Shown: piece by piece, positions 1 through 17,133 of the stretch
Position numbering within the stretch: the first letter of the stretch is position 1
Layout: every line of letters begins with the position of its first letter
NCBI GenBank assembly: GCA_039683575.1
Contig: JBDKRC010000194.1
Coordinates: forward strand, 1-17,198
Source of the DNA: Armatimonadia bacterium
GTDB taxonomy: Bacteria > Armatimonadota > Zipacnadia > Zipacnadales > UBA11051
Length of the DNA stretch: 17,198 bases
Reading direction: 5' to 3'
The notes under the pieces: model-generated
Told to the model about the DNA's origin: nothing
Seen by the model: the letters and a program-made list of their open reading frames with translations, nothing else
The model's database searches: none
Program-made: the position numbers and the translations under genes

Positions 1-1197
1 CGGCTGCCGGAGGTCAAGGAGGGGGAGAATGCTTGGGGGGATTATGTGCAGTTGTTTCACTTGCGGGAGGATGGGAGCGGACCGCGGCTCCGGCGGGTGG
101 GGGAACTGTCTGAGCGGCAGTTGAAGACGCTTGATAGCTTCGGGCCGACAGATGATGAACAGCGAAAGCTGCGGCATGCTCCGGCGGTGCGACGGACGAT
201 TGCGGCTCTGGAGGCGGCGAGTCGGAAGCCCCGGATGGCCGCACCCATCACGTTTGAGGATGGTTGGGTAGATGACAGAGATGTCTCCAAGTTGTGCGTC
301 TGCGGCCGAATCTGCCAGAACCAGGCTCGCGCCGCTGCGCTAGAGGGAGACGTGGCACAGGCGGGGGAACTGCTGCTCGTGGCCCTGCGGATTGCAGGAC
401 AACTGGCCCAACGTCCCACTGTAATGGCCCAGGCCATGGCCCGAAATGTGTACCGCGCAATAGTAGATTCAGGGGAGCAGATCCTTGCCAGCGGCACTAT
501 CCCGGCGCTTCAGTCAAAGCAGTTGCGGCGGGAACTCGATCTGCAGCGCTCTCACCTGACTATGGGCTGGCAGCGGGCTCTGCCAACGGAACGCGCTGAG
601 AAGATGAGCCTCTACCGGTCGTTCGAGTGGCAGCGCGAGGAGGCAGTTCGGTACCCCTGCTGGGAGTTGGTATTCCCATGCTACGGCCCGGCAGACAATG
701 TGGCAGGGACTATCGCGTACAGTCTCGCCAACATCGCGCCGTATTGGCGGCGACAGCAGATGATAACCTTGGACACACTCCAGAGGCTGACCCCTCTGGC
801 GCAGGCCCCGGCTGAGCACTTGACGGAGCTTGTAGCCTTGCGCAATTCGCTAGACAAGGACTCCATAGATATCGCGACGGTCATGGGCTTCGCCCTTGCG
901 GCAACGATCATTCACAGCCAGGTGGCACAGTTGCGGATGAACCAGTTCTCGGTTGCGCTGGCGCTTAATGATTACTACCGCGAGCGTGGGCGGTATCCGG
1001 AGAGGTTGGGGGAGTTGCCGCAGCCTTTGCCGGGGGATGTGCTTAGCGGGGAGGCGTTTCGGTACCGGCGCGTGGGGGCGAAGTATTTGCTTTATGCGAT
1101 TGGGGCGGATCGACGGGATGATGGGGGGAAGGGGCCGAAGCCGAGGCAGGCGGATGAGGCGGGGGATTGGGTTTGGGAGACGGAGAGGCGGCGGTAA
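1..1197 (+). CDS. Hypothetical protein, 5'-truncated by the window; C-terminus resembles the GspG/pseudopilin-type tail
   Basis: Frame 1 is open from base 1 (RLPEVKEGENAWGDYVQLF...) to TAA at 1195-1197. C-terminal ALALNDYYRERGRYPERLGEL...FRY...YLLYAIGADRRDDGG resembles a pattern common in Planctomycetota/Armatimonadota hypothetical proteins. Confidence 0.7.
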   Translation, partial: RLPEVKEGENAWGDYVQLFHLREDGSGPRLRRVGELSERQLKTLDSFGPTDDEQRKLRHAPAVRRTIAALEAASRKPRMAAPITFEDGWVDDRDVSKLCVCGRICQNQARAAALEGDVAQAGELLLVALRIAGQLAQRPTVMAQAMARNVYRAIVDSGEQILASGTIPALQSKQLRRELDLQRSHLTMGWQRALPTERAEKMSLYRSFEWQREEAVRYPCWELVFPCYGPADNVAGTIAYSLANIAPYWRRQQMITLDTLQRLTPLAQAPAEHLTELVALRNSLDKDSIDIATVMGFALAATIIHSQVAQLRMNQFSVALALNDYYRERGRYPERLGELPQPLPGDVLSGEAFRYRRVGAKYLLYAIGADRRDDGGKGPKPRQADEAGDWVWETERRR

Positions 1198-1212
1198 GGC
1201 GAACGGCGTCCG

Positions 1213-1354
1213 GGCCCGACAGGCATGTCGCAGTCTGTCGGGGCCAGTGGCCCCTCCCACGCCAGGCTCTCCCCCGCCTCGCGAAGGTTGGTGGGAGTGG
1301 GTGCGGGACGCACCCACCTACGCGGGGTGATCCTTCACTTCGTTCAGGATGACA
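1213..1354. repeat. Cluster of REP-like palindromes between convergent genes
   Basis: CCCGACAG..CTGTCGGG (1215-1242); GGGGCCAGTGGCCCC-TCCCAC (1240-1260); GTGGGTGCG-GGA-CGCACCCAC-CTAC (1297-1321); GATCCTTCACTTCGTTCAGGATGAC (1329-1353). The last three types recur elsewhere in the window. Confidence 0.85.
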
Positions 1355-1374
1355 AGGCAAGGTGGCGAGGCGTA

Positions 1375-3045
1375 CTAGGCTGGGCGGATTTGGGCTGGCC
1401 TCTCCCCCGCCTCGTGCAGGCGCTGCTGGAGGCGGGCGGCTAGTTGGGCTCTTACCTCTTTGTGGGCGGGACTTGCTACCAGATTTTCCCTTTCGTGCGG
1501 GTCGTTTTCCAGGTCATAGAGGAAGTCCTCTATGTACACGTCGCTGTCCGGAACGTTCCACGGGTGGGATTGTGGGGCGCGGACTGAGTATTTCCACTTC
1601 TTCGTGCGCAGGCAGCGGCCGATTTGGGATTCGCTGATCTGGGCGAAGATGTCCGTGGGCCAGTCGGGGGCGCCCGCGAGGGCTTGCTGGAGGGGGCGGC
1701 CTGCCATGGTGTCGGGGATGGGGAGGCCGGCGGCGGCGAGGATGGTGGGGGGGAGGTCTATGAGGCTGGCGAGATGGGGGGAGACGTGGCCGGGCCGGAT
1801 GTCAGACCGCGGTGAGGCTGCGGTCTGACATTCGGCCCCTCCATTGATGGCGGCGGAGGCGGGCGAGACGCCCGGGGTTGAAACCCCGGGCTGGGGGAGG
1901 AGCGTCCCTCCGGGACACGGAGAAGAGGCGCCAGAGGCGGGCAAGAATGCCCTGCGACGTGGCACGTCGCTTCGCGCACCCACGGCAGGAGCGGGCGAGA
2001 CGCCCGCACTACGCGTGGGTGGAGGAGGCGGGAGTGGATCGTGGATAACGGCATGCGGGCAGGATGCCCGCGCACCTACGGCAACGATGGAGGGAGACGC
2101 CGAACGGCCGGACGGCGGGGTACGAGCCCCCGCCCCACAGTCAGAGGAGGGGAAGCCGGGGCCTGTTAGGACCATGGGGATACGGAGGCTGGCGTCGTGG
2201 CAGGAGCGTTTGTACTCGCTGTTGCGGGTGCAGAAGTGGCTGCCGTGGTCGCTGGTGTAGATTACCAGCGTGTTGTCGAGGAGGTTGCGGGCGGATAGGG
2301 TCTCGCGGACGCGGCCGAGGTTGTGGTCGAGGCTCGCGCAGGCGCCGAGGTAGTCGGGGTAGTTCTCGCGCCAGTTGCCCTCGGTGCCGATCAGGTCGCC
2401 GGGGACGTCGTAGTTGGCGAACCGTTCCTGGGAGCCTGCGGGGCCTACCATGCGGCCGAGGTCGTTTTGGTGGTGGGGCTCGAGGTAGGAGACGAAGAGG
2501 AAGAAGGGGCGCTCGCCGTCGCGTGTATTGAGGTAGTCGAGGACGAAGTCCGTTTCGCGGTCCACGCGGTAGCCCTCGAAGTCTACCCGGTTGCCGTCGC
2601 CGTCGAACATGTGGCCCTCGAAGGGGTGGGAAGTGAATTCGAGGACGTCGGCGGCGAGCCAGTAGTCGTAGCCGCCGCGGCGCTCGGGCGGGACGGGGAG
2701 TTCGCGGAAGTCGTGCTCGGCGTCGGAGGCGAGGTGCCATTTGCCGATGTAGCCGGTTTCGTAGCCGGCGGCGGACAGGCGCTGGGCGACGGTGATTTCG
2801 TCGAGCGGGAGGGCGCGGTTGTTGGTGAAGCAGCCGACCTGAGTGGCCCATTTGCCGGTCTGCAGGCAGGCGCGGGCGGGCCCGCAGACGGGCTGGCAGG
2901 TGAAGGCGCTTTCGAAGCGGACGCCCTCGGCGGCCATTTGGTCGAGGTTGGGGGTAAGGGGGAGGCGCTGGCCGTAGCAGCCGCAGGTGTCCCAGCGCTG
3001 CTGGTCGGAGAAGAAGACGATGATGTTGGGGCGGTCGGCGCTCAT
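1375..3045 (-). CDS. Sulfatase (formylglycine-dependent, Cys-type) with an in-frame insertion of about 118 codons derived from repeats
   Basis: [22 protein letters not shown] (CxPxR), [28 protein letters not shown] and [14 protein letters not shown] are canonical sulfatase motifs. GGAGG lies 5 nt before the ATG. Residues about 299-416 are low-complexity and map to palindromes. Confidence 0.95.
1792..2151. repeat. Intragenic cluster of REP-like palindromes inside the sulfatase CDS
   Basis: 19-bp stem 1792-1838; CCCGGGGTTGAAACCCCGGG 1871-1890 plus GTCCCTCCGGGAC; GCGACGTG-G-CACGTCGC 1954-1970; GCGGGCGAGACGCCCGC 1991-2007; GCGGGCAGGATGCCCGC 2055-2071; GGCGGGGTACGAGCCCCCGCC 2114-2134. Confidence 0.9.
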
Positions 3046-3287
3046 TCCAGCCTCCGGGCGGCAGAATTGGCAGCATCAGGGAACAAAAGTCTCATCCGAA
3101 CCGGCAGGAGAAGCGTCAATACTTGAGGAATAAAGTATTTGTAGTTCCGCGGCGAAATACCTGCTCACGGAGGCCACTAAGGAAGAGCGTGGCTTTGCTT
3201 GAGTCTGGGAGGAGACCTACGTTCGCGGGCAAAACACAGACGCAATATTGTCGGCGTTGCACATACCACAGGTTAGGAGATGATAGC

Positions 3288-3989
3288 ATGAGGAGACGTG
3301 GCTTTACGCTCATTGAGTTGCTGGTTGTGATCGCGATCATTGCGATTCTGGCAGCCATTCTGTTCCCGGTGTTTGCCAAGGCGCGGGAGAAGGCTCGCCA
3401 AGCTTCGTGTCTGTCGAACATCAAGCAGCTGATGCTTGGAGTGATTCAGTATGCCCAGGACTATGACGAAACACTACCGTCTTACCGTGTAAACAACGCG
3501 CTTTACCCGAGCGTGTGGCTAGACCGGGACAATACGGGGGCCATGGACCGGCATTTCTGGATGGAACAGATCGAGCCGTACCTCAAGAACGTGCAGATAC
3601 TCTTCTGCCCGAGCCAGGGCGGCATGGGTCAGGGCGTGACGTCCGGCGGGAAGATGTACCCGAACTACTGCTTCAACGGGGTGGCAAGCGCGCAACGGTT
3701 GGCGGTGTTCCAGAGCACTTCAACGAAGATCATCATCGGCGACATAGGCAAGATTGACACGACCCGGACGCCGGTGGGATATCTGGAGAACTGGTTCATC
3801 AACACGGGCCCGACTACCACCTGGCAGCAATACTTCTGGTGGTCTGAGATCCACAACGGTGGCGGGAACTACGGGTATCTCGATGGCCATGCGAAGTGGC
3901 TGGGCGCCAAAGATGGGGCGCTGGGGCCGGTAGTGGCGACTGGCAGTTCGCTGCCTGGCGACCAGACTGGGTCTTGGATGGCAAACTAA
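3288..3989 (+). CDS. Prepilin-type N-terminal cleavage/methylation domain protein with H-X9-DG C-terminal motif (DUF1559-like)
   Basis: [78 protein letters not shown] at 3275-3280 precedes ATG 3288, so the ORF-track start at 3123 is probably too long. Confidence 0.93.
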
Positions 3990-4004
3990 GAGGTGACGGG
4001 GTGT

Positions 4005-4029
4005 GTGGGTGCGAGACGCACCCACCTAC
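4005..4029. repeat. REP-like palindrome GTGGGTGCG-AGA-CGCACCCAC-CTAC
   Basis: One mismatch to 1297-1321; related to 13816-13840; GTAG end on the - strand. Confidence 0.85.
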
Positions 4030-4084
4030 GCGTGGAGGGAACAGCGGGGGAGGCAGTGTGAGATAGGTATACGTACGAGAAGAG

Positions 4085-4172: not shown

Positions 4173-4260
4173 GCGTGCGAAGCCGACGTCGCTTCACGTA
4201 CCTACGGCCCGAGCGGGCAGGATGCCCGCGCACCTACGGCCGGAGTGAACGGCCGGAAGC
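4173..4260. repeat. REP-like pair: ...ACGTCGCTTCACGTACCTAC then GCGGGCAGGATGCCCGCGCACCTAC
   Basis: 4186-4208 resembles 1964-1986. 4213-4240 is identical to 2055-2082 and nearly identical to 7292-7319. Confidence 0.85.
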
Positions 4261-4406: not shown

Positions 4407-5111
4407 ATGACAATACGTGGTTTTACGCTGATCGAGTTGTTGGTCGTAATCGCCATCATCGCCATTTTGGCGGCGATTCTGTTCCCGGTATTTGCGAAAG
4501 CGCGCGAGAAGGCCCGGCAGTCGAGTTGCCTTAGCAATGTCAAACAGCTTGGCCTGGCGATCATGCAGTATTCTCAGGATTACGATGAGCGGTTGCCGAT
4601 GGGTTATGACCTGGGGACGCCCCGTTGCGGGATAATCCAGAGCACGCAACCGTACACCAAAAACTTCCAGGTGCATGACTGCCCCAGCGCGAGCGAAAAG
4701 TCACAGAATAGCTATCTGGGCAGCCGTAGCTACGGCTACAACAGCAGCATCATCCAGTCCGGAGCAAATACCTCGGCGAGCCTGGGACAGATAGTGCGCC
4801 CGGCGGAGATCGTGATGTTAGGCGATGTGTGCCAGGACAACAACGCGACGTACCGCTTCTCTCCTCCGACCGCAGGACCGTTCCAGTGCGATCCGGATGG
4901 GTCACACTGCAAAGTGTGCGGCGGGACGCATAACTCACGGTATGCCGACAGCGGGCACGGCAGCATCTATGACCGGCCGGGCTTCAACTTCATCGAGCGT
5001 CATAACGGGATGGGTAACGTCGGCTTCTGCGACGGCCATGCCAAGGCGATGAAGCACATGGACCTGTATCAGAATGGTGTTAACCACCCGTATTTCGACT
5101 GGAACCTGTAG
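4407..5111 (+). CDS. Second prepilin-type N-terminal cleavage/H-X9-DG protein (DUF1559-like)
   Basis: [77 protein letters not shown] at 4395-4400. Confidence 0.93.
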
Positions 5112-5138
5112 ATGACGGTGTGTGGATGACGTGAGTCC

Positions 5139-5187
5139 GGCCGGGGTTGAAACCCCGGCCTGAGGGACGAGCGTCCCTCCGGGACGC
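5139..5187. repeat. Bipartite palindromic element GGCCGGGGTTGAAACCCCGGCC + GCGTCCCTCCGGGACGC
   Basis: Same element at 1871-1916 and 6061-6109, with compensatory changes at the stem base (CCC/GGG, GGCC/GGCC, GACC/GGTC). Confidence 0.85.
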
Positions 5188-5213
5188 CGTCAGACATCCC
5201 TGAATAGGATACC

Positions 5214-6035: not shown

Positions 6036-6060
6036 TTAGAGAGGGTGTACGCCGCGGGGC

Positions 6061-6308
6061 GACCGGGGTTGAAACCCCGGTCTGAGGAATGAGCGTCCCT
6101 CCGGGACGCGGGAGACGACGGGGACCGGCCGTGAGACCGCGGGGCGACTATTGGTCGGTGATAACGGCAGGGCCGGCTGAAGCTCGGCCCCTCCGGGGAG
6201 AGAATGAGCGTCCCTCCGGGACGTGGGAGACGACGGGGACCGGCTTGAGACCGCGAGGCGACTGTTGGTCGGTGATAACGGCAGGGCCGGCTGAAGCTCG
6301 GCCCCTCC
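6061..6308. repeat. REP-like cluster containing a tandem duplication of about 108 nt
   Basis: GACCGGGGTTGAAACCCCGGTC 6061-6082. Unit 1 (6087-6194) and unit 2 (6202-6308) differ by a few substitutions and one indel; each ends in GGGCCGGCTGAAGCTCGGCCCCTCC. Confidence 0.9.
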
Positions 6309-6331
6309 AGCAAACGGCGAGGAAGAGTAAC

Positions 6332-7198: not shown

Positions 7199-7495
7199 GT
7201 GGGTGCGGACGCCCGCCCTACGAAGAGGGTGAAATCGGCTGTAGGGCGGGGGCTCGTACCCCGCCGCTCGGAAGGTCGGTGATAACGGTCGGCGGGCAGG
7301 ATGCCCGCGCACCCACGGCGGGACACGGCGAGACGCCCGTCCTACTGAGCCGGTGAAATCGGCTGTAGGGCGGGGGCTCGTACCCCGCCGCTCGGATGGT
7401 CGGTGATAACGGCCGGCGGGGTACGAGCCCCCGCCCTACAGCCGGAGCCCCCGCCCTACGGCCGACGACTTCCGGCACACGGAGTGTGCCTACCA
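7199..7495. repeat. Large REP/REPIN-like cluster
   Basis: Direct repeat 7228-7296 vs 7352-7420; perfect 31-bp inverted repeat 7360-7390/7414-7444 carrying GTAG...CTAC ends; further palindromes at 7199-7221, 7292-7316, 7326-7345 and 7474-7493. Confidence 0.92.
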
Positions 7496-8833: not shown

Positions 8834-9012
8834 AAGCCAGTCAGAGCCCTTGAGACAGCGGGCGTCGGGCTCTGGAGAGGCCTCCCACTCTGAACCATCG
8901 AATGGGGCCGCAGTCTCAAAAAAGTCACAAAATCCAGAAGGAATCCTGAGGGGGAGTGCGGAACCAGTTCATCGGGGTGCGTGACGCATCGCATCTTTCA
9001 GGGAGGCTTCGC

Positions 9013-9363
9013 ATGGAGATTCGGGTCAGCCCTGCTGTTACCGTGGTCGTGCTCATCGTCGTCGGGGCGATTCTGGTCGGTCTGTACTACATGGTGATGG
9101 CCGCACCAGGCACCAAGGCGGTGGCCGGAATGGTTGGGCCTGCGCCTGAGGTGGCACCGCCGACGGCGGCGGTTGAGCCGACGAGCACCACCGCTCCAGT
9201 GGCCGCCGGGGACAAGAAAGAGGCGAGTGCAGAGGCGAAGAAGGACGCGGCTGCCACGGACAAGGGCGAGGCTGCGGCGACGGAGACGAAGGACAAGGCG
9301 GCCGGGGACGGCAAAGAGGCCCCGGCACCGGAGAAGAAGGACACAGCGCCGGCGGCGTCCTGA
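9013..9363 (+). CDS. Small hypothetical protein with one N-terminal TM segment and an Ala/Lys/Asp/Glu-rich disordered tail
   Basis: GGGAGG at 9001-9006, ATG 9013; hydrophobic AVTVVVLIVVGAILVGLYYMVM; followed by a terminator. Confidence 0.75.
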   Translation: MEIRVSPAVTVVVLIVVGAILVGLYYMVMAAPGTKAVAGMVGPAPEVAPPTAAVEPTSTTAPVAAGDKKEASAEAKKDAAATDKGEAAATETKDKAAGDGKEAPAPEKKDTAPAAS

Positions 9364-9381
9364 GGATAGCTCTCAATTTAT

Positions 9382-9415
9382 GCCGCAGCCTGCTTCATTG
9401 CAGGCTGCGGCTTTT
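9382..9415 (+). terminator. Intrinsic terminator
   Basis: GCCGCAGCCTGC-TTCATT-GCAGGCTGCGGC perfect 12-bp stem plus TTTTGTT. Confidence 0.8.
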
Positions 9416-9499
9416 GTTGTTCTGGAGGCTGAGGAGGGTTCGCGGAAGGTGTCTCTTGACGTCGCGGGGAATCGAGTCAGTGGTCGCGTCGAGGGGCCC

Positions 9500-9683
9500 T
9501 GGAGCCGCCCGGCTGGAAGCCGGGCTCCATTGGCGTAATCTCGCGGCTGGAAGCCGCTCGTACGGCAGTGGGGCGGCTGGAAGCTGCTGGTGCGGCAGTG
9601 GGCGGCTGAGGCTGCTCGTACGGCGATGGGCGGCCCCCCTGCTTTTGCGGCAGTGAACTACCTGAAGCCGCTCGTACGGCAGC
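9500..9683. repeat. Palindrome GCCCGGCTGGAAGCCGGGCTCC followed by about 5 degenerate 28-30 nt tandem units (GCGGCTGGAAGCCGCTCGTACGGCAGTGG)
   Basis: Units start near 9543, 9573, 9602, 9630 and 9658. 9506-9547 closely matches 17038-17079. Confidence 0.8.
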
Positions 9684-9718
9684 AACATAGCACAATACTA
9701 CGTGTGGAGAGGATCGTC

Positions 9719-11209
9719 ATGCCACAGGTTATCGTTGTTGATTGCGGTTCGACCAACATCCGCGCCATCGCTGTTGATGAGACCGGGCAGATTGTGGCGA
9801 GTGCCGGGCGGCCGAATGATTCTACGCCGCAGGAAGGGCAGCCCAAGGGCTACATCATCTGGGACCTGCCGCAGCTTTGGAAGAAGATCTGCGATGTGTG
9901 CCGGGAGGTCGCGCCGCGGGCGACGGACGTGCGCGCGATGACGCTGACGACCTGGGGCGCGGATGGGGCGCCGGTGCGCGAGGACGGGACGCTGGCCTAC
10001 CCACCGATCTGCTGGCAGGACAACAGGACGCAGGGGATCATTGACCACATTGACGACTACCGCAGTGCGTGGGATTTGTATGCAACCACGGGGTATCAGC
10101 TCATCCCGTTCAACACACTGCTGCGGCTGATCTGGCTGCGGGAGAACCAGCCGGAGACGCTGGAGGGGACGCAGTGGCTGATGATGCCGGGGCTGCTGTC
10201 GTACCTGCTGTGCGGCGAGCGCTCGATTGAGCGGACGGCGGCGGGTACCATGATGGCGCTGGACATGGCGAAGGGCGACTGGTCAGCGGAGCTTCTGGGC
10301 CTGGCTGAGCTGGAGGCGTCGTTCTTCCCGCGCTGGGTCTTGCCGGGTGACGTGATTGGGAAGCTGACGACGAAGGCGGCCAAGGAGACGGGGCTTCCGG
10401 CAGGCATCGCGGTGGTCGCCGCGGGGCATGACACGCAGTTTGCGGCGATTGGCTCGGGCGCGCAGCCGGGGGAGGCAATCTTGTCCTCGGGGACATGGGA
10501 GATCCTGATGCTGCGCCAGGACAGCTTCCAGGTGAACCGGCAGGGATTTGACGACGGAGTGTTGGTGGAATGTGATGCTCTGCCGGGGATGTTCAACCCG
10601 CAGCTTCTGATGATGGGGTCCGGGGTCCTGGAGTGGATAAGAGATCAGTTCTACCGTGACTTGCCGGAGGGCGCGGAGGGGTATGCGGAGTTGGCGGTGG
10701 AGGCATGCAAGGCCGGTCCCGGGGCCGGTGGGGTCTCGGTGCTGCCCAGCTTCGTGCCCTCGACAGGGCCGGCGAAGCGGTATGGGACGCAGGGGACGGT
10801 GCTGGGGCTGACGATTACGTCCGAACCGGGGCAGATCTACCGCGCGGCGCTGGAGGGGCTCACGTTCCAGTTGCGGCACGCGATCGAGGTGCTGGGAGCG
10901 TCGAGCGGAGCGGCACCGAACCTGATCCGGGTGGTTGGTGGTGGGTCGAAGAACGACCTGTGGAACCAGCTACGCGCCGACGTCACCGGGCTGCCGATCA
11001 TCACGATTGAGCAGAAGGAAGCTACGGTGCTGGGCGCGGCGATGTTTGCGTTCAAGGGCGCAGGGGAGTTCGCGGACATCCAGGAGGCGCAGGCGGCGAT
11101 GACCGGCGGCCAGACGACGGTCGAGCCAGGGGTGGAGGGGGACGCTTACGGCGAGGCCTATGGGCGGTACCGGAAGGTGCTGGAGGATCTGAGCGGGTTC
11201 TACGGTTAG
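9719..11209 (+). CDS. fucK: FGGY family sugar kinase, most like L-fuculokinase
   Basis: VVDCGSTNIRAIAV, TTWGADG, FNTLLRLIWLRENQP, AGHDTQFA, LSSGTWEILM, YRAALEGL, VGGGSKNDLWNQLRAD, EATVLGAAMF match FucK as I recall it. GGAGAGG lies upstream of ATG 9719. Confidence 0.8.
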   Translation: MPQVIVVDCGSTNIRAIAVDETGQIVASAGRPNDSTPQEGQPKGYIIWDLPQLWKKICDVCREVAPRATDVRAMTLTTWGADGAPVREDGTLAYPPICWQDNRTQGIIDHIDDYRSAWDLYATTGYQLIPFNTLLRLIWLRENQPETLEGTQWLMMPGLLSYLLCGERSIERTAAGTMMALDMAKGDWSAELLGLAELEASFFPRWVLPGDVIGKLTTKAAKETGLPAGIAVVAAGHDTQFAAIGSGAQPGEAILSSGTWEILMLRQDSFQVNRQGFDDGVLVECDALPGMFNPQLLMMGSGVLEWIRDQFYRDLPEGAEGYAELAVEACKAGPGAGGVSVLPSFVPSTGPAKRYGTQGTVLGLTITSEPGQIYRAALEGLTFQLRHAIEVLGASSGAAPNLIRVVGGGSKNDLWNQLRADVTGLPIITIEQKEATVLGAAMFAFKGAGEFADIQEAQAAMTGGQTTVEPGVEGDAYGEAYGRYRKVLEDLSGFYG

Positions 11210-11926: not shown

Positions 11927-12016
11927 ATTCTTCGCTTCGCTCAGAATGACAGTAGTGGGCGCCTGACTTTCGGGCTCCCGGCACTGTCCGGAAATTCTTC
12001 GCTTCGCTCAGAATGA
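11927..12016. repeat. Two identical 23-nt repeats ATTCTTCGCTTCGCTCAGAATGA in the pckA leader
   Basis: 11927-11949 and 11994-12016; a variant lies at 1330-1352. Confidence 0.88.
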
Positions 12017-13803: not shown

Positions 13804-13815
13804 GGGTGGGTGGGA

Positions 13816-13925
13816 GTGGGTTCGAGACGAACCCACCTACGCGGCTGAGGCAGTGGTCTAGCTGGGTTCGAGACGAACCCAGGTACGCGGCTTAGGCGAT
13901 GGCCACCACGGAGTGTCGGCCCCAC
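13816..13925. repeat. REP-like cluster between convergent genes
   Basis: GTGGGTTCG-AGA-CGAACCCAC-CTAC (13816-13840); CTGGGTTCG-AGA-CGAACCCAG-GTAC (13862-13886); GGCCACCACGGAGTGTCGGCC-CCAC (13901-13925, compare 7474-7493). Confidence 0.85.
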
Positions 13926-17037: not shown

Positions 17038-17079
17038 CGCCCGGCTGGAAGCCGGGCTCCGTTGGCGTCAACTCGCGGC
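17038..17079. repeat. Palindromic element CGCCCGGCTGGAAGCCGGGCTCC plus tail
   Basis: Near-identical to 9506-9547, same orientation. Confidence 0.8.
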
Positions 17080-17133
17080 AGGATCTCCTATTTCGCACTT
17101 TGACAATTGGTCTTCGTTTTTTCTGCAGAAGGA

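What the first reader, a model, noticed from the sequence alone, without database searches (positions are those of the whole stretch)
1798..2151. A multi-family REP-like cassette sits in frame inside a sulfatase gene
Seen: 354 nt (118 codons, residues about 299-416) separate ...[10 protein letters not shown] from [20 protein letters not shown], which read as contiguous sulfatase sequence. Removing them leaves a normal-sized 438-aa enzyme. The insert has no stop codon and consists of 6-8 palindromes, most with intergenic twins in this window (4186, 4213, 5139, 6061, 7292, 7326, 7415). The TAGs of its two GTAG ends fall out of frame. GTCAGA occurs near both ends (1801, 2140; 339 nt apart, in frame). 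Known: single palindromic elements inside proteins occur in Rickettsia (RPEs), while GTAG-type REPs are normally extragenic. Inference: a permissive loop became a landing pad that accreted several element types under selection to keep the frame. The insert may be translated as a disordered loop or removed at DNA/RNA level.
Basis: partly seen in the sequence, partly recalled or inferred. Interest (0 to 1): 0.85.

Follow-up and report, generated by a model that had tools for sequence, protein, structure and literature searches.

The report
REP hairpin array inside sulfatase gene
A 360-base string of nine small selfish DNA hairpins (REP elements) sits in frame inside an otherwise intact sulfatase gene of an uncultured bacterium. 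It is an extreme example of a kind of event already described in other bacteria.

Summary
The sulfatase CDS (window 1375-3045, minus strand, 556 aa) carries 120 codons (1792-2151) where relatives have two. All 13 aligned homologs, 20 of 20 relatives' genomes with both halves on one contig, and all 72 evaluable metagenome loci lack them.

The insert holds nine palindromes from at least five repeat families, which have about 10 to 200 copies in this genome. Several carry the GTAG tag of REP elements. One family flanks an IS200/RAYT-like transposase gene.

Contigs from public runs bridge both junctions, so it is not a misassembly. One related strain has a cassette 132 nt shorter, which keeps the frame.

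Substitutions in the flanks between insert-bearing strains are 16 synonymous to 6 non-synonymous. Residues invariant across 48 aligned sequences, including C54, P56 and R58, are present. AlphaFold2 models the insert as unstructured between two confident strands. Most likely it is translated as a tolerated loop.

It is not unique. At least 37 other genes of this genome (ArgJ, QueA, MutS and others) hold in-frame REPs, and the sulfatase cassette is the largest.

Intragenic GTAG REPs are already in print (Di Nocera 2013, PMC3733652), and this scan found them before on other DNA. This is a new, extreme member of a known kind.

The parts
1375..3045 (-). Sulfatase CDS, 556 codons plus stop (P0001). 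The catalytic domain starts at residue 6, so there is no room for a signal peptide.
2152..3045 (-). Codons 1-298, the N-terminal catalytic part (Pfam Sulfatase 6-297). Holds C54-x-P56-x-R58, D14, Q15, K102, H104, D266, H267 and K279, all invariant in 48 aligned sequences.
1792..2151 (-). In-frame REP array, codons 299-418 (360 nt, 71% G+C). It replaces two codons of the orthologs. Codon usage is non-coding-like and the AF2 model gives pLDDT 27-33.
1375..1791 (-). Codons 419-556 plus stop, the C-terminal subdomain (Pfam SGSH_C 415-542).
1799..1831 (.). Palindrome 1: 12-bp stem, 9-nt loop. An imperfect extension reaches 1787-1843 and runs into the G419/H420 codons. Low copy (1-3) and partly like the 74-nt unit at 6121-6194.
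   Evidence: (I5, D16, D9)
1860..1874 (.). Palindrome 2: family-A-like core with a 6-bp stem. The surrounding segment has 41-51 copies by short BLAST.
1870..1916 (.). Palindromes 3 and 4: a two-hairpin unit (10-bp stem at 1870-1891, 5-bp stem at 1904-1916). The same family sits at 5132-5189 and 6054-6111 and flanks the Y1 transposase gene on contig C331.
   Evidence: (D3)
1939..1952 (.). Palindrome 5: 5-bp stem, a family-D-like core.
1954..1970 (.). Palindrome 6: 7-bp stem with a degenerate tag downstream. Twin at 4186.
   Evidence: (D8)
1991..2013 (.). Palindrome 7: family A core plus CTAC tag (GTAG on the coding strand). The 23-mer has 136 copies in this genome at up to 1 mismatch. Read here as ...RSAGVSPA...
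2039..2082 (.). Palindrome 8: family D core at 2055-2071 with a conserved 5' flank and CTAC tag at 2076. Twins at 4197, 7276 and 7400.
   Evidence: (D2)
2100..2146 (.). Palindrome 9: family B core at 2114-2134 with a degenerate tag (CCAC). About 200 copies by short BLAST. Twins at 7239, 7363 and 7410.
   Evidence: (D19, I1, I2)
7200..7465 (.). Intergenic REP array of the same families (B, D, A-like), for comparison. Similar arrays lie at 1286-1325, 3994-4033, 4186-4240, 5132-5189, 6054-6310 and 13805-13890.

Best explanation
The segment is an array of nine REP-type palindromes from at least five families of this genome's GTAG-tagged repeats. This is the kind of repeat mobilised by HUH/Y1 (IS200/RAYT-like) transposases. 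The array lies in frame in a cytoplasmic S1-type sulfatase gene, in the turn between the last strand of the catalytic domain and the first strand of the C-terminal subdomain. It is real chromosomal DNA, is specific to this lineage, and is most likely read through by the ribosome as a Pro/Ala/Gly/Ser/Arg-rich, unstructured 120-residue loop that the enzyme tolerates. It persists because this one frame has no stop and the length is a multiple of three. Insertions without those properties would have been purged. Once a first REP was tolerated, further units could be added or lost. Two family-A cores lie 132 nt apart in the same frame, so recombination between them changes the length without breaking the frame. 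Shown here: the insertion itself, its families and copy numbers, the bridged junctions, the strain variant, the synonymous bias in the flanks, the disordered model, and the same phenomenon in at least 37 other genes. Inferred: translation, retained enzyme activity, and the mode of growth.
For: The insert is absent from 13 of 13 aligned homologs. It is absent from 20 of 20 relatives' genomes where both halves lie on one contig, 0-15 nt apart, including the same-genus G002 at 77% identity. It is absent from all 72 evaluable loci among the 80 metagenome loci (70 abutting, 2 with overlapping HSPs, 8 incomplete). Repeat families: short BLAST gives about 10 to 203 genomic copies for eight of the nine units. 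Consensus sequences of families A, B, D, E and F end in CTAC. Three Y1 transposase genes are flanked by repeated hairpins, one of them by the family at 1870-1916. Not a misassembly: the X1 contig covers 1298-2014 without a gap, and the X2 contig covers 2057-2262. Strain variant: X2 and X3 contigs join 1875 to 2008, skipping 132 nt or 44 codons. Selection: of the 22 listed differences to X1-X3 in the flanks, 16 are synonymous and 17 fall at codon position 3. These flanks are physically linked to insert sequence on the same contigs. Residues C54, P56, R58, D14, Q15, K102, H104, D266, H267 and K279 are invariant across A2, which includes P0001. AF2: residues 303-413 have pLDDT below 50 and no secondary structure, while strands 291-295 and 420-427 flank it and the blocks beyond them mostly score above 90. 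Insert codon log-odds are negative and the flanks positive. Genome-wide: 37 of 606 evaluable REP clusters lie in an open frame with coding-like flanks on both sides, and 26 of those 37 host ORFs have a Pfam family. Ortholog checks confirm lineage-specific inserts in ArgJ, a C43 protein, a DUF6785 protein and a DEAD helicase. Frame use of family A inside genes is skewed: 11, 9, 4, 1 and 0 over the five open frames. That skew fits selection on the peptide.
Against: There is no RNA or protein evidence. No RNA run was listed, and the insert peptide found nothing in the protein collection. One X1 contig shows a joint 2082->2153 that skips 70 nt, which is not a multiple of three. The letters between are unknown, so some alleles may be frameshifted. 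The host turn GPGFxGG has the same length in all 13 homologs aligned in A1, so it is not an obviously permissive loop. By chance about 4-7% of random insertions of such an array would stay open and in frame (0.12-0.20 for an open frame, times 1/3 for length). Only 40 of 133 differences were printed, so the synonymous bias rests on a subset. X1-X3 come from one study.
Confidence: 0.7

Rival explanations
1. Young pseudogene. The array inactivated the sulfatase, and the frame is open only by luck and recency.
For: The chance of an open, in-frame outcome is not negligible, about 4-7%. The genome has many sulfatase paralogs (20 matches in its own genome), so loss of one could be neutral. The conserved turn is disrupted. 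A possible 70-nt joint appears in X1.
Against: The 16:6 ratio of synonymous to non-synonymous changes, with 17 of 22 at codon position 3, comes from flanks of strains that already carry the insert. Residues invariant across the 48-sequence alignment are intact in P0001. The one fully resolved length variant keeps the frame. Dozens of other genes, including the housekeeping-type genes ArgJ, QueA and MutS, carry the same kind of insert.
Confidence: 0.13
2. Exaptation. The array has acquired a role. It might act as an RNA structure that pauses translation at the domain boundary or tunes mRNA stability. Alternatively the loop might serve as a new interaction or localisation segment.
For: The structure is very stable (z = -7.2) and sits exactly at the boundary of the two Pfam domains. 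Frame use of intragenic REPs is skewed. Inserts at the same site of ArgJ and DUF6785 genes appear in a second species of the genus.
Against: Host genes are unrelated and sites are diverse. The insert is absent from all orthologs. Cassette content varies between strains. Codon usage is not ameliorated. These points fit tolerance better than function.
Confidence: 0.1
3. The insert is removed before the mature protein is made, by DNA excision, RNA splicing or protein splicing.
For: Hairpin-flanked DNA is a substrate of Y1 transposases (established for IS200/IS605; recalled).
Against: No joint linking about 1791 to about 2152 is among the 15 listed for 4 runs; one further joint was not shown. No intein or Hint domain was found in Pfam. 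No intron or other Rfam family was found.
Confidence: 0.03
4. Assembly artefact of a metagenome-assembled genome, with repeats collapsed or chimerically joined.
For: The genome is a 352-contig MAG rich in repeats. 105 of 711 REP clusters lie near contig ends.
Against: Separate contigs from other runs, 95-99% alike, bridge both junctions with 95 to over 200 nt on each side. Both gene halves keep strand, order and frame.
Confidence: 0.02

Closest known systems
Intragenic GTAG-tagged REPs (Di Nocera, De Gregorio & Rocco 2013, BMC Genomics 14:522, PMC3733652), especially Opitutus terrae GTAG-17/18/19
   Same: Short G+C-rich palindromes with a GTAG tag, hundreds of copies, mostly intergenic, with a minority in frame inside known genes as singles, dimers or clusters. 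The host lists overlap (QueA, DEAD-box helicases, GH20, DNA repair and replication genes). Some encoded peptides are near-identical in type: O. terrae has HGRDARAT and GTGVSPV, this genome has GGRDARTTR and AGVSPA (supplement 3 part 1).
   Different: The paper's text gives 20-30 aa for most inserts and 43-82 aa for the largest clusters. Here there are 120 aa, nine hairpins and at least five families in one site. The phylum differs (Armatimonadota is not mentioned: 0 occurrences). Strain-level length variation of the cassette is seen here.
Rickettsia palindromic elements (RPE; Ogata et al. 2000, seen only as cited in PMC3733652 and PMC3184786)
   Same: Selfish palindromic repeats inserted in frame in genes that likely remain functional. 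The encoded segment is tolerated as an extra loop.
   Different: RPEs are single units of about 105-146 bp (table in PMC3184786) from an obligate intracellular alphaproteobacterium. Here the array is built of 15-45-bp REP units of several families in a free-living, 6.2-Mb, 63.5% G+C genome.
REP/BIME and REPIN-RAYT systems (Nunvar 2010, PMC2817692; Bertels & Rainey 2011, PMC3116915; abstracts in the search listing only)
   Same: Multi-family REP arrays, and single-copy Y1 transposase genes flanked by their own REPs.
   Different: BIMEs and REPINs are extragenic, and REPINs are inverted doublets. In this cassette all tagged units point the same way (tag 3' on the + strand). No transposase gene was found next to the most abundant families A, B and D.

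Membership tests
GTAG-tagged REP elements | Short (about 20-40 bp) G+C-rich palindrome forming a stem-loop | tested here: met
   Seven perfect stems of 6-12 bp and two of 5 bp lie in 1792-2151. Fold z = -7.2.
GTAG-tagged REP elements | GTAG (CTAC on the other strand) tetranucleotide at one end | tested here: met
   Genome-wide consensus sequences of families A, B, D, E and F end in CTAC. In the insert there are two exact tags (2009, 2076) and two degenerate ones (CCAC).
GTAG-tagged REP elements | High copy number, predominantly extragenic | tested here: met
   1025 perfect repeated hairpins fall in 51 families. The family A 23-mer has 136 copies at up to 1 mismatch, with 0 for the reversed control. 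Only 37 of 606 evaluable clusters lie in an open coding frame.
REP-RAYT (REPtron) system | A Y1/HUH transposase gene flanked by the REPs it belongs to | tested here: inconclusive
   Three PF01797 genes (76-90 bits) are flanked by repeated hairpins. The gene on C331 is flanked by the family at 1870-1916. None was found beside families A, B or D. NCBIfam's REP_Tyr_transpos model is not met (19.8 bits, cut-off 80), while the IS200/IS605 model is met (58-68 bits, cut-off 55).
REPIN (inverted REP doublet) | Two REPs in inverted orientation forming a long hairpin | tested here: not met
   The tagged units of the cassette all have the tag 3' on the + strand, so they lie head to tail.
Rickettsia palindromic elements (RPE) | Single units of about 105-146 bp from Rickettsia-specific sequence families | tested here: not met
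   Units here are 15-45 bp and of several families. The size range is taken from PMC3184786. No sequence comparison with RPEs was made.
S1 (formylglycine) sulfatase, Pfam PF00884 | Sulfatase domain with the C-x-P-x-R motif and metal-binding Asp/His residues | tested here: met
   PF00884 scores E = 2.3e-48. C54, P56, R58, D14, Q15, D266 and H267 are invariant across 48 aligned sequences including P0001. The roles of these residues are recalled, not tested.
Intein, self-splicing intron or other excised element | Hint/intein domain, or a group I/II intron RNA structure | tested here: not met
   No such Pfam family was found in P0001. No Rfam family was found in the window. No excision joint was listed.

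The most novel reading that the evidence does not exclude
In this Armatimonadia lineage, REP arrays inside genes act as a self-seeding source of new protein sequence. A tolerated first REP attracts or recombines with further units. Copies that lie in the same frame let the array expand and contract in multiples of three. Peptide-level selection then filters which REP frames survive. The result is that working enzymes carry strain-variable, REP-encoded disordered loops of up to 120 residues, which would be an observable route from selfish DNA to new protein segments.
Probability: 0.3. Interest if true: 0.55.

Novelty: new member of a known kind. Interest (0 to 1): 0.38.

Why it matters
The finding shows how far an enzyme gene can be loaded with selfish palindromic DNA and still look selected. 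The load here is 120 extra codons, nine hairpins and several families at one site. The cassette also differs between co-existing strains by a frame-preserving step. For annotation, such genes look over-long or 'fused' and break assemblies, and the inserts can be mistaken for novel domains. For evolution, this genome has at least 38 decorated genes and a species-specific burst of one REP family (136 copies against 0-3 in 40 relatives). That makes it a convenient natural system for testing whether REP-encoded loops are translated, tolerated or exapted. The principle itself has been in print since 2000 (RPEs) and 2013 (intragenic GTAG REPs).

Tried and rejected
- RNA evidence: no RNA holder was listed for window 1400-3000, so expression could not be examined.
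- Insert peptide (residues 296-421) against the 5.8-billion protein collection: 1544 candidates shared words, none scored E <= 0.001.
- JGI/ENA metagenome contigs: the best 80 loci are all 46-74% identical relatives. None carries the insert, and no near-identical allele or empty site at high identity was found to date the insertion.
- Donor locus for the whole cassette: none in this assembly. The longest other matches are 100-166 nt at 70-81% identity.
- Empty-site or excised allele: no such joint among the 15 listed for the four runs, with one more not shown. Contigs drop rare variants, so this does not show absence.
- The X1 joint 2082->2153 (70 nt) could not be interpreted, because the letters between are unknown.
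- The +114-nt duplication in the X2/X3 variant is only partly covered. The contig ends at 2076, so only the -132-nt step is counted as shown.
- Ortholog check of the AMP-binding gene was ambiguous. Matches ran through the site, and the G002 gene is broken over two contigs there.
- GTCAGA at both ends as a target-site duplication: rejected (8 copies in the window; the copy at 2140 lies in family B's usual flank).
- Intrinsic terminators or promoters in 1150-3300: none. Rfam: no family.
- NCBIfam's RAYT model is not met by the three transposase genes.
- Earlier notes of this scan, searched by sequence: nothing.
- Searches for Armatimonadota REPs in print returned only CRISPR or survey papers. 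A second search for intragenic REPs since 2013 returned mainly PMC3733652.
Full report
**What is there**

The minus-strand ORF 1375..3045 encodes a 556-aa protein, P0001. Pfam places a Sulfatase domain at residues 6-297 (E = 2.3e-48) and SGSH_C at 415-542, with nothing between. The solved homolog 2qzu aligns query 5-296 to its residues 27-343 and query 415-524 to 345-452. A solved relative is therefore contiguous exactly where the window has about 118 extra residues.

In an alignment with 13 homologs of 439-459 aa, every homolog has a single gap there. GPGF-x-G-G in the homologs corresponds to GPGF-[120 residues]-G in the window. At DNA level the foreign stretch is 1792-2151 (360 nt) and replaces 6 nt.

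The same-genus ortholog (G002, 77% identity) has the two halves on adjacent bases. In all 20 relatives' genomes where both halves were listed on one contig, they lie 0-15 nt apart. Of the 80 best metagenome loci, 70 have abutting halves, 2 have overlapping alignments, 8 are incomplete and none has an insert.

**What the insert is made of**

It holds seven perfect palindromes with stems of 6-12 bp and two with 5-bp stems. It folds far better than shuffles: -203.7 against -164.6 +/- 5.4 kcal/mol, z = -7.2.

Short-word BLAST against the organism's own 6.23-Mb, 352-contig, 63.5% G+C assembly gives about 10 to 203 copies for eight of the nine units. Only the first palindrome (1799-1831) is low copy.

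Genome-wide consensus sequences of the main families end in CTAC, which is GTAG on the other strand and the hallmark of GTAG-tagged REPs. The genome has seven PF01797 (Y1 transposase) matches. The three strongest are flanked by repeated hairpins, and the one on contig C331 is flanked by the two-hairpin family found at 1870-1916 of the insert. These three genes meet NCBIfam's IS200/IS605 model but not its REP-associated transposase model. No transposase was found next to the most abundant families A, B and D.

The family A 23-mer (up to 1 mismatch) occurs 136 times in this genome. It occurs 3 times in each of two same-genus genomes and 0-2 times in the other 38 relatives searched. The reversed control gives 0. 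Outside these genomes the exact 23-mer occurs in 29 places of the species collection, 16 of them in one Planctomycetota MAG.

Earlier AI notes of this scan call the genome an uncultured Armatimonadia. The best named homologs are from Armatimonadota MAGs.

**Is it real DNA?**

Contigs of public wastewater-metagenome runs from one study, 95-99% alike to the window, cover 1298-2014 without a gap (X1) and 2057-2262 (X2). Both junctions are therefore bridged outside this assembly.

X2 and X3 contigs carry a different cassette: 1440-1875 joins directly to 2008-2082, followed by 5 letters and then 1974-2076. The skipped 132 nt (44 codons) lie between two family-A-type cores that are 132 nt apart and read in the same frame. 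Recombination between them, or insertion next to one of them, cannot break the frame.

The following duplication would add 114 nt if it continues as in the window, but the contig ends first. An X1 joint 2082->2153 (70 nt) could not be interpreted.

**Is the gene still working?**

Only the used frame of the six is free of stops. The chance of an open frame is 0.20 by shuffling. Among intergenic arrays of the genome, 9 of 78 frames are open. Times 1/3 for length, that gives roughly 4-7% for a random insertion.

Codon log-odds trained on the genome's long ORFs are clearly positive in both flanks and negative in the insert, so the insert is unameliorated non-coding-type DNA.

Of the 22 listed differences between the window and the X1-X3 strains that fall in the coding flanks, 16 are synonymous and 17 are at codon position 3. 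The same contigs carry insert sequence, so this purifying selection acted on an insert-bearing gene. One search printed only 40 of 133 differences.

C54, P56 and R58 (the C-x-P-x-R motif) and D14, Q15, K102, H104, D266, H267 and K279 are invariant across 48 aligned sequences including P0001. Their catalytic roles are recalled from knowledge of S1 sulfatases.

An AlphaFold2 model (48-sequence alignment, mean pLDDT 76.3, pTM 0.78) gives pLDDT 27-33 and no secondary structure for residues 303-413. This stretch sits between strands 291-295 and 420-427, and most 10-residue blocks beyond those strands score 90 or more. No intein or intron signal, Rfam family or terminator-like site was found.

**It is not a singular event**

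A census of perfect hairpins found 1025 copies in 51 families, grouped in 711 clusters. Of the 606 clusters not at contig ends:
- 37 lie in an open frame with coding-like flanks in the same frame on both sides;
- 26 have same-frame flanks with a stop between them;
- 59 have same-strand flanks in another frame.

The last two numbers are in the 1:2 ratio expected for gaps between co-directional genes. The 37 are therefore an extra, truly intragenic class.

Of the 37 host ORFs, 26 have a Pfam family. They include ArgJ, QueA, MutS, a pseudouridine synthase, a transketolase/E1-beta type protein, FGGY kinase, a second sulfatase (hit in a different loop), GH20, heparinases, an acyl-CoA synthetase and a DEAD/MrfA helicase. 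Three more ORFs that passed only the looser test are DNA polymerase I, a second helicase and an amidohydrolase.

Ortholog checks:
- ArgJ: residues 187-216 are absent in G004 and G001. G002 has a different insert at the same site, with 27-nt tandem repeats and a REP-like hairpin.
- A C43 protein: 50 residues (three REP copies) are absent in 5 of 5 relatives.
- A DUF6785 protein: 42 residues are absent in G004, while the two same-genus genomes have similar length.
- The DEAD helicase: relatives are 14-18 residues shorter over the segment.
- The AMP-binding enzyme: ambiguous.

By the span of multi-copy DNA, the in-gene clusters range from 28 to 302 nt. The sulfatase cassette is the largest and QueA is next at 183 nt.

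The same REP is read in recurrent frames. For family A the counts are RSAGVSPA 11, AGETPALR 9, GGRDARTTR 4 (three in one gene), RVVRASRP 1 and the Arg-rich fifth open frame 0. This skew is what selection on a translated peptide would give. It is an inference, not a test.

**Mechanism**

The best reading (about 0.7) is a tolerated, translated REP array, kept because it is stop-free and a multiple of three. It changes by REP-REP recombination or by further insertions.

No locus elsewhere holds the whole cassette, but modules of two or three neighbouring units recur at 70-84% identity. The array therefore looks assembled from modules like the genome's intergenic arrays, not copied as a block from a present-day donor. 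The assembly is incomplete.

Y1 transposases of the IS200/IS605 type act on hairpins in single-stranded DNA and insert next to a short target that resembles their own end. That is established knowledge, recalled here. It would explain why an existing REP seeds further insertions, but this was not tested.

The rivals are a young pseudogene (0.13), exaptation (0.10), removal before the mature protein (0.03) and an assembly artefact (0.02).

**Comparison with what is known**

Di Nocera, De Gregorio and Rocco (2013, PMC3733652; I read passages and part 1 of supplementary file 3) catalogued GTAG and CGTC REPs inside genes of several species. Opitutus terrae had the most. Most inserts encode 20-30 aa, and clusters in Thauera and R. 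conorii encode 43-82 aa. They noted many hosts in replication and repair.

Their O. terrae list includes QueA, DEAD-box helicases and GH20. It also lists peptides such as HGRDARAT and GTGVSPV, which imply a core hairpin very like family A here.

RPEs of Rickettsia are the older precedent (Ogata 2000, seen only as cited). This scan has also noted in-frame REPs repeatedly in other genomes.

The kind is therefore known. What is new here is the host phylum: Armatimonadota is not mentioned in that paper and did not come up in my searches. Also new are the size and multi-family make-up of one cassette (120 aa, nine hairpins, at least five families) and the direct sighting of a frame-preserving length variant between co-occurring strains.

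**Verdict**

This is a new, extreme member of a known kind, of moderate interest.

Noticed in passing
window 9201-9347: Three 48-nt tandem repeats (67-75% alike) lie inside overlapping ORFs 8956-9363 and 9134-9538. The ORF 8956-9363 has no Pfam family.
   Followed up: no
window 9550-9682: Four copies of a 19-nt direct repeat (spacing 30, 28 and 56 nt) straddle the predicted start of the FGGY sugar-kinase ORF 9590-11209. This may be an operator-like array.
   Followed up: no
window 9506-9551 and 17038-17083: A 46-nt repeat (91% alike) contains a hairpin family with about 25 nt of conserved 3' flank and no GTAG tag. It has 40 copies genome-wide and no Rfam hit. It may be a different kind of element from the REPs.
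   Followed up: partly
window 11927-11949, 11994-12016 and 1330-1352: An A+T-richer 23-nt palindromic repeat occurs twice, identically, upstream of the PEPCK gene. A relative (83% alike) lies just downstream of the sulfatase stop codon.
   Followed up: no
L040 (G002:C15) 2010-2165: The same-genus ArgJ ortholog carries, at the same site as this genome's REP insert, about 50 codons with 27-nt tandem repeats. It also holds a REP-like hairpin whose stem differs from family A by a compensatory pair.
   Followed up: partly
G000 contig C43 9677-11149 (L044): The QueA ORF matches its 322-position Pfam profile over 411 residues. It holds the second-largest in-gene REP span (183 nt).
   Followed up: partly
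G002 contigs C53 and C64: The ortholog of the REP-bearing AMP-binding gene is broken over two contigs exactly at the REP site. This suggests a repeat there too, and that such inserts fragment assemblies.
   Followed up: no
Genome-contig loci L143-L171: The exact 23-base family A core plus tag also occurs in MAGs of other phyla (Planctomycetota, 16 copies in one MAG; Verrucomicrobiota, Acidobacteriota, Lentisphaerota and Cyanobacteria, 1-2 copies each).
   Followed up: no
window 3123-3989 and 4407-5111: Two paralogous prepilin-type N-methylation plus DUF1559 genes (182 nt at 73% identity) are separated by REP-bearing spacers.
   Followed up: no
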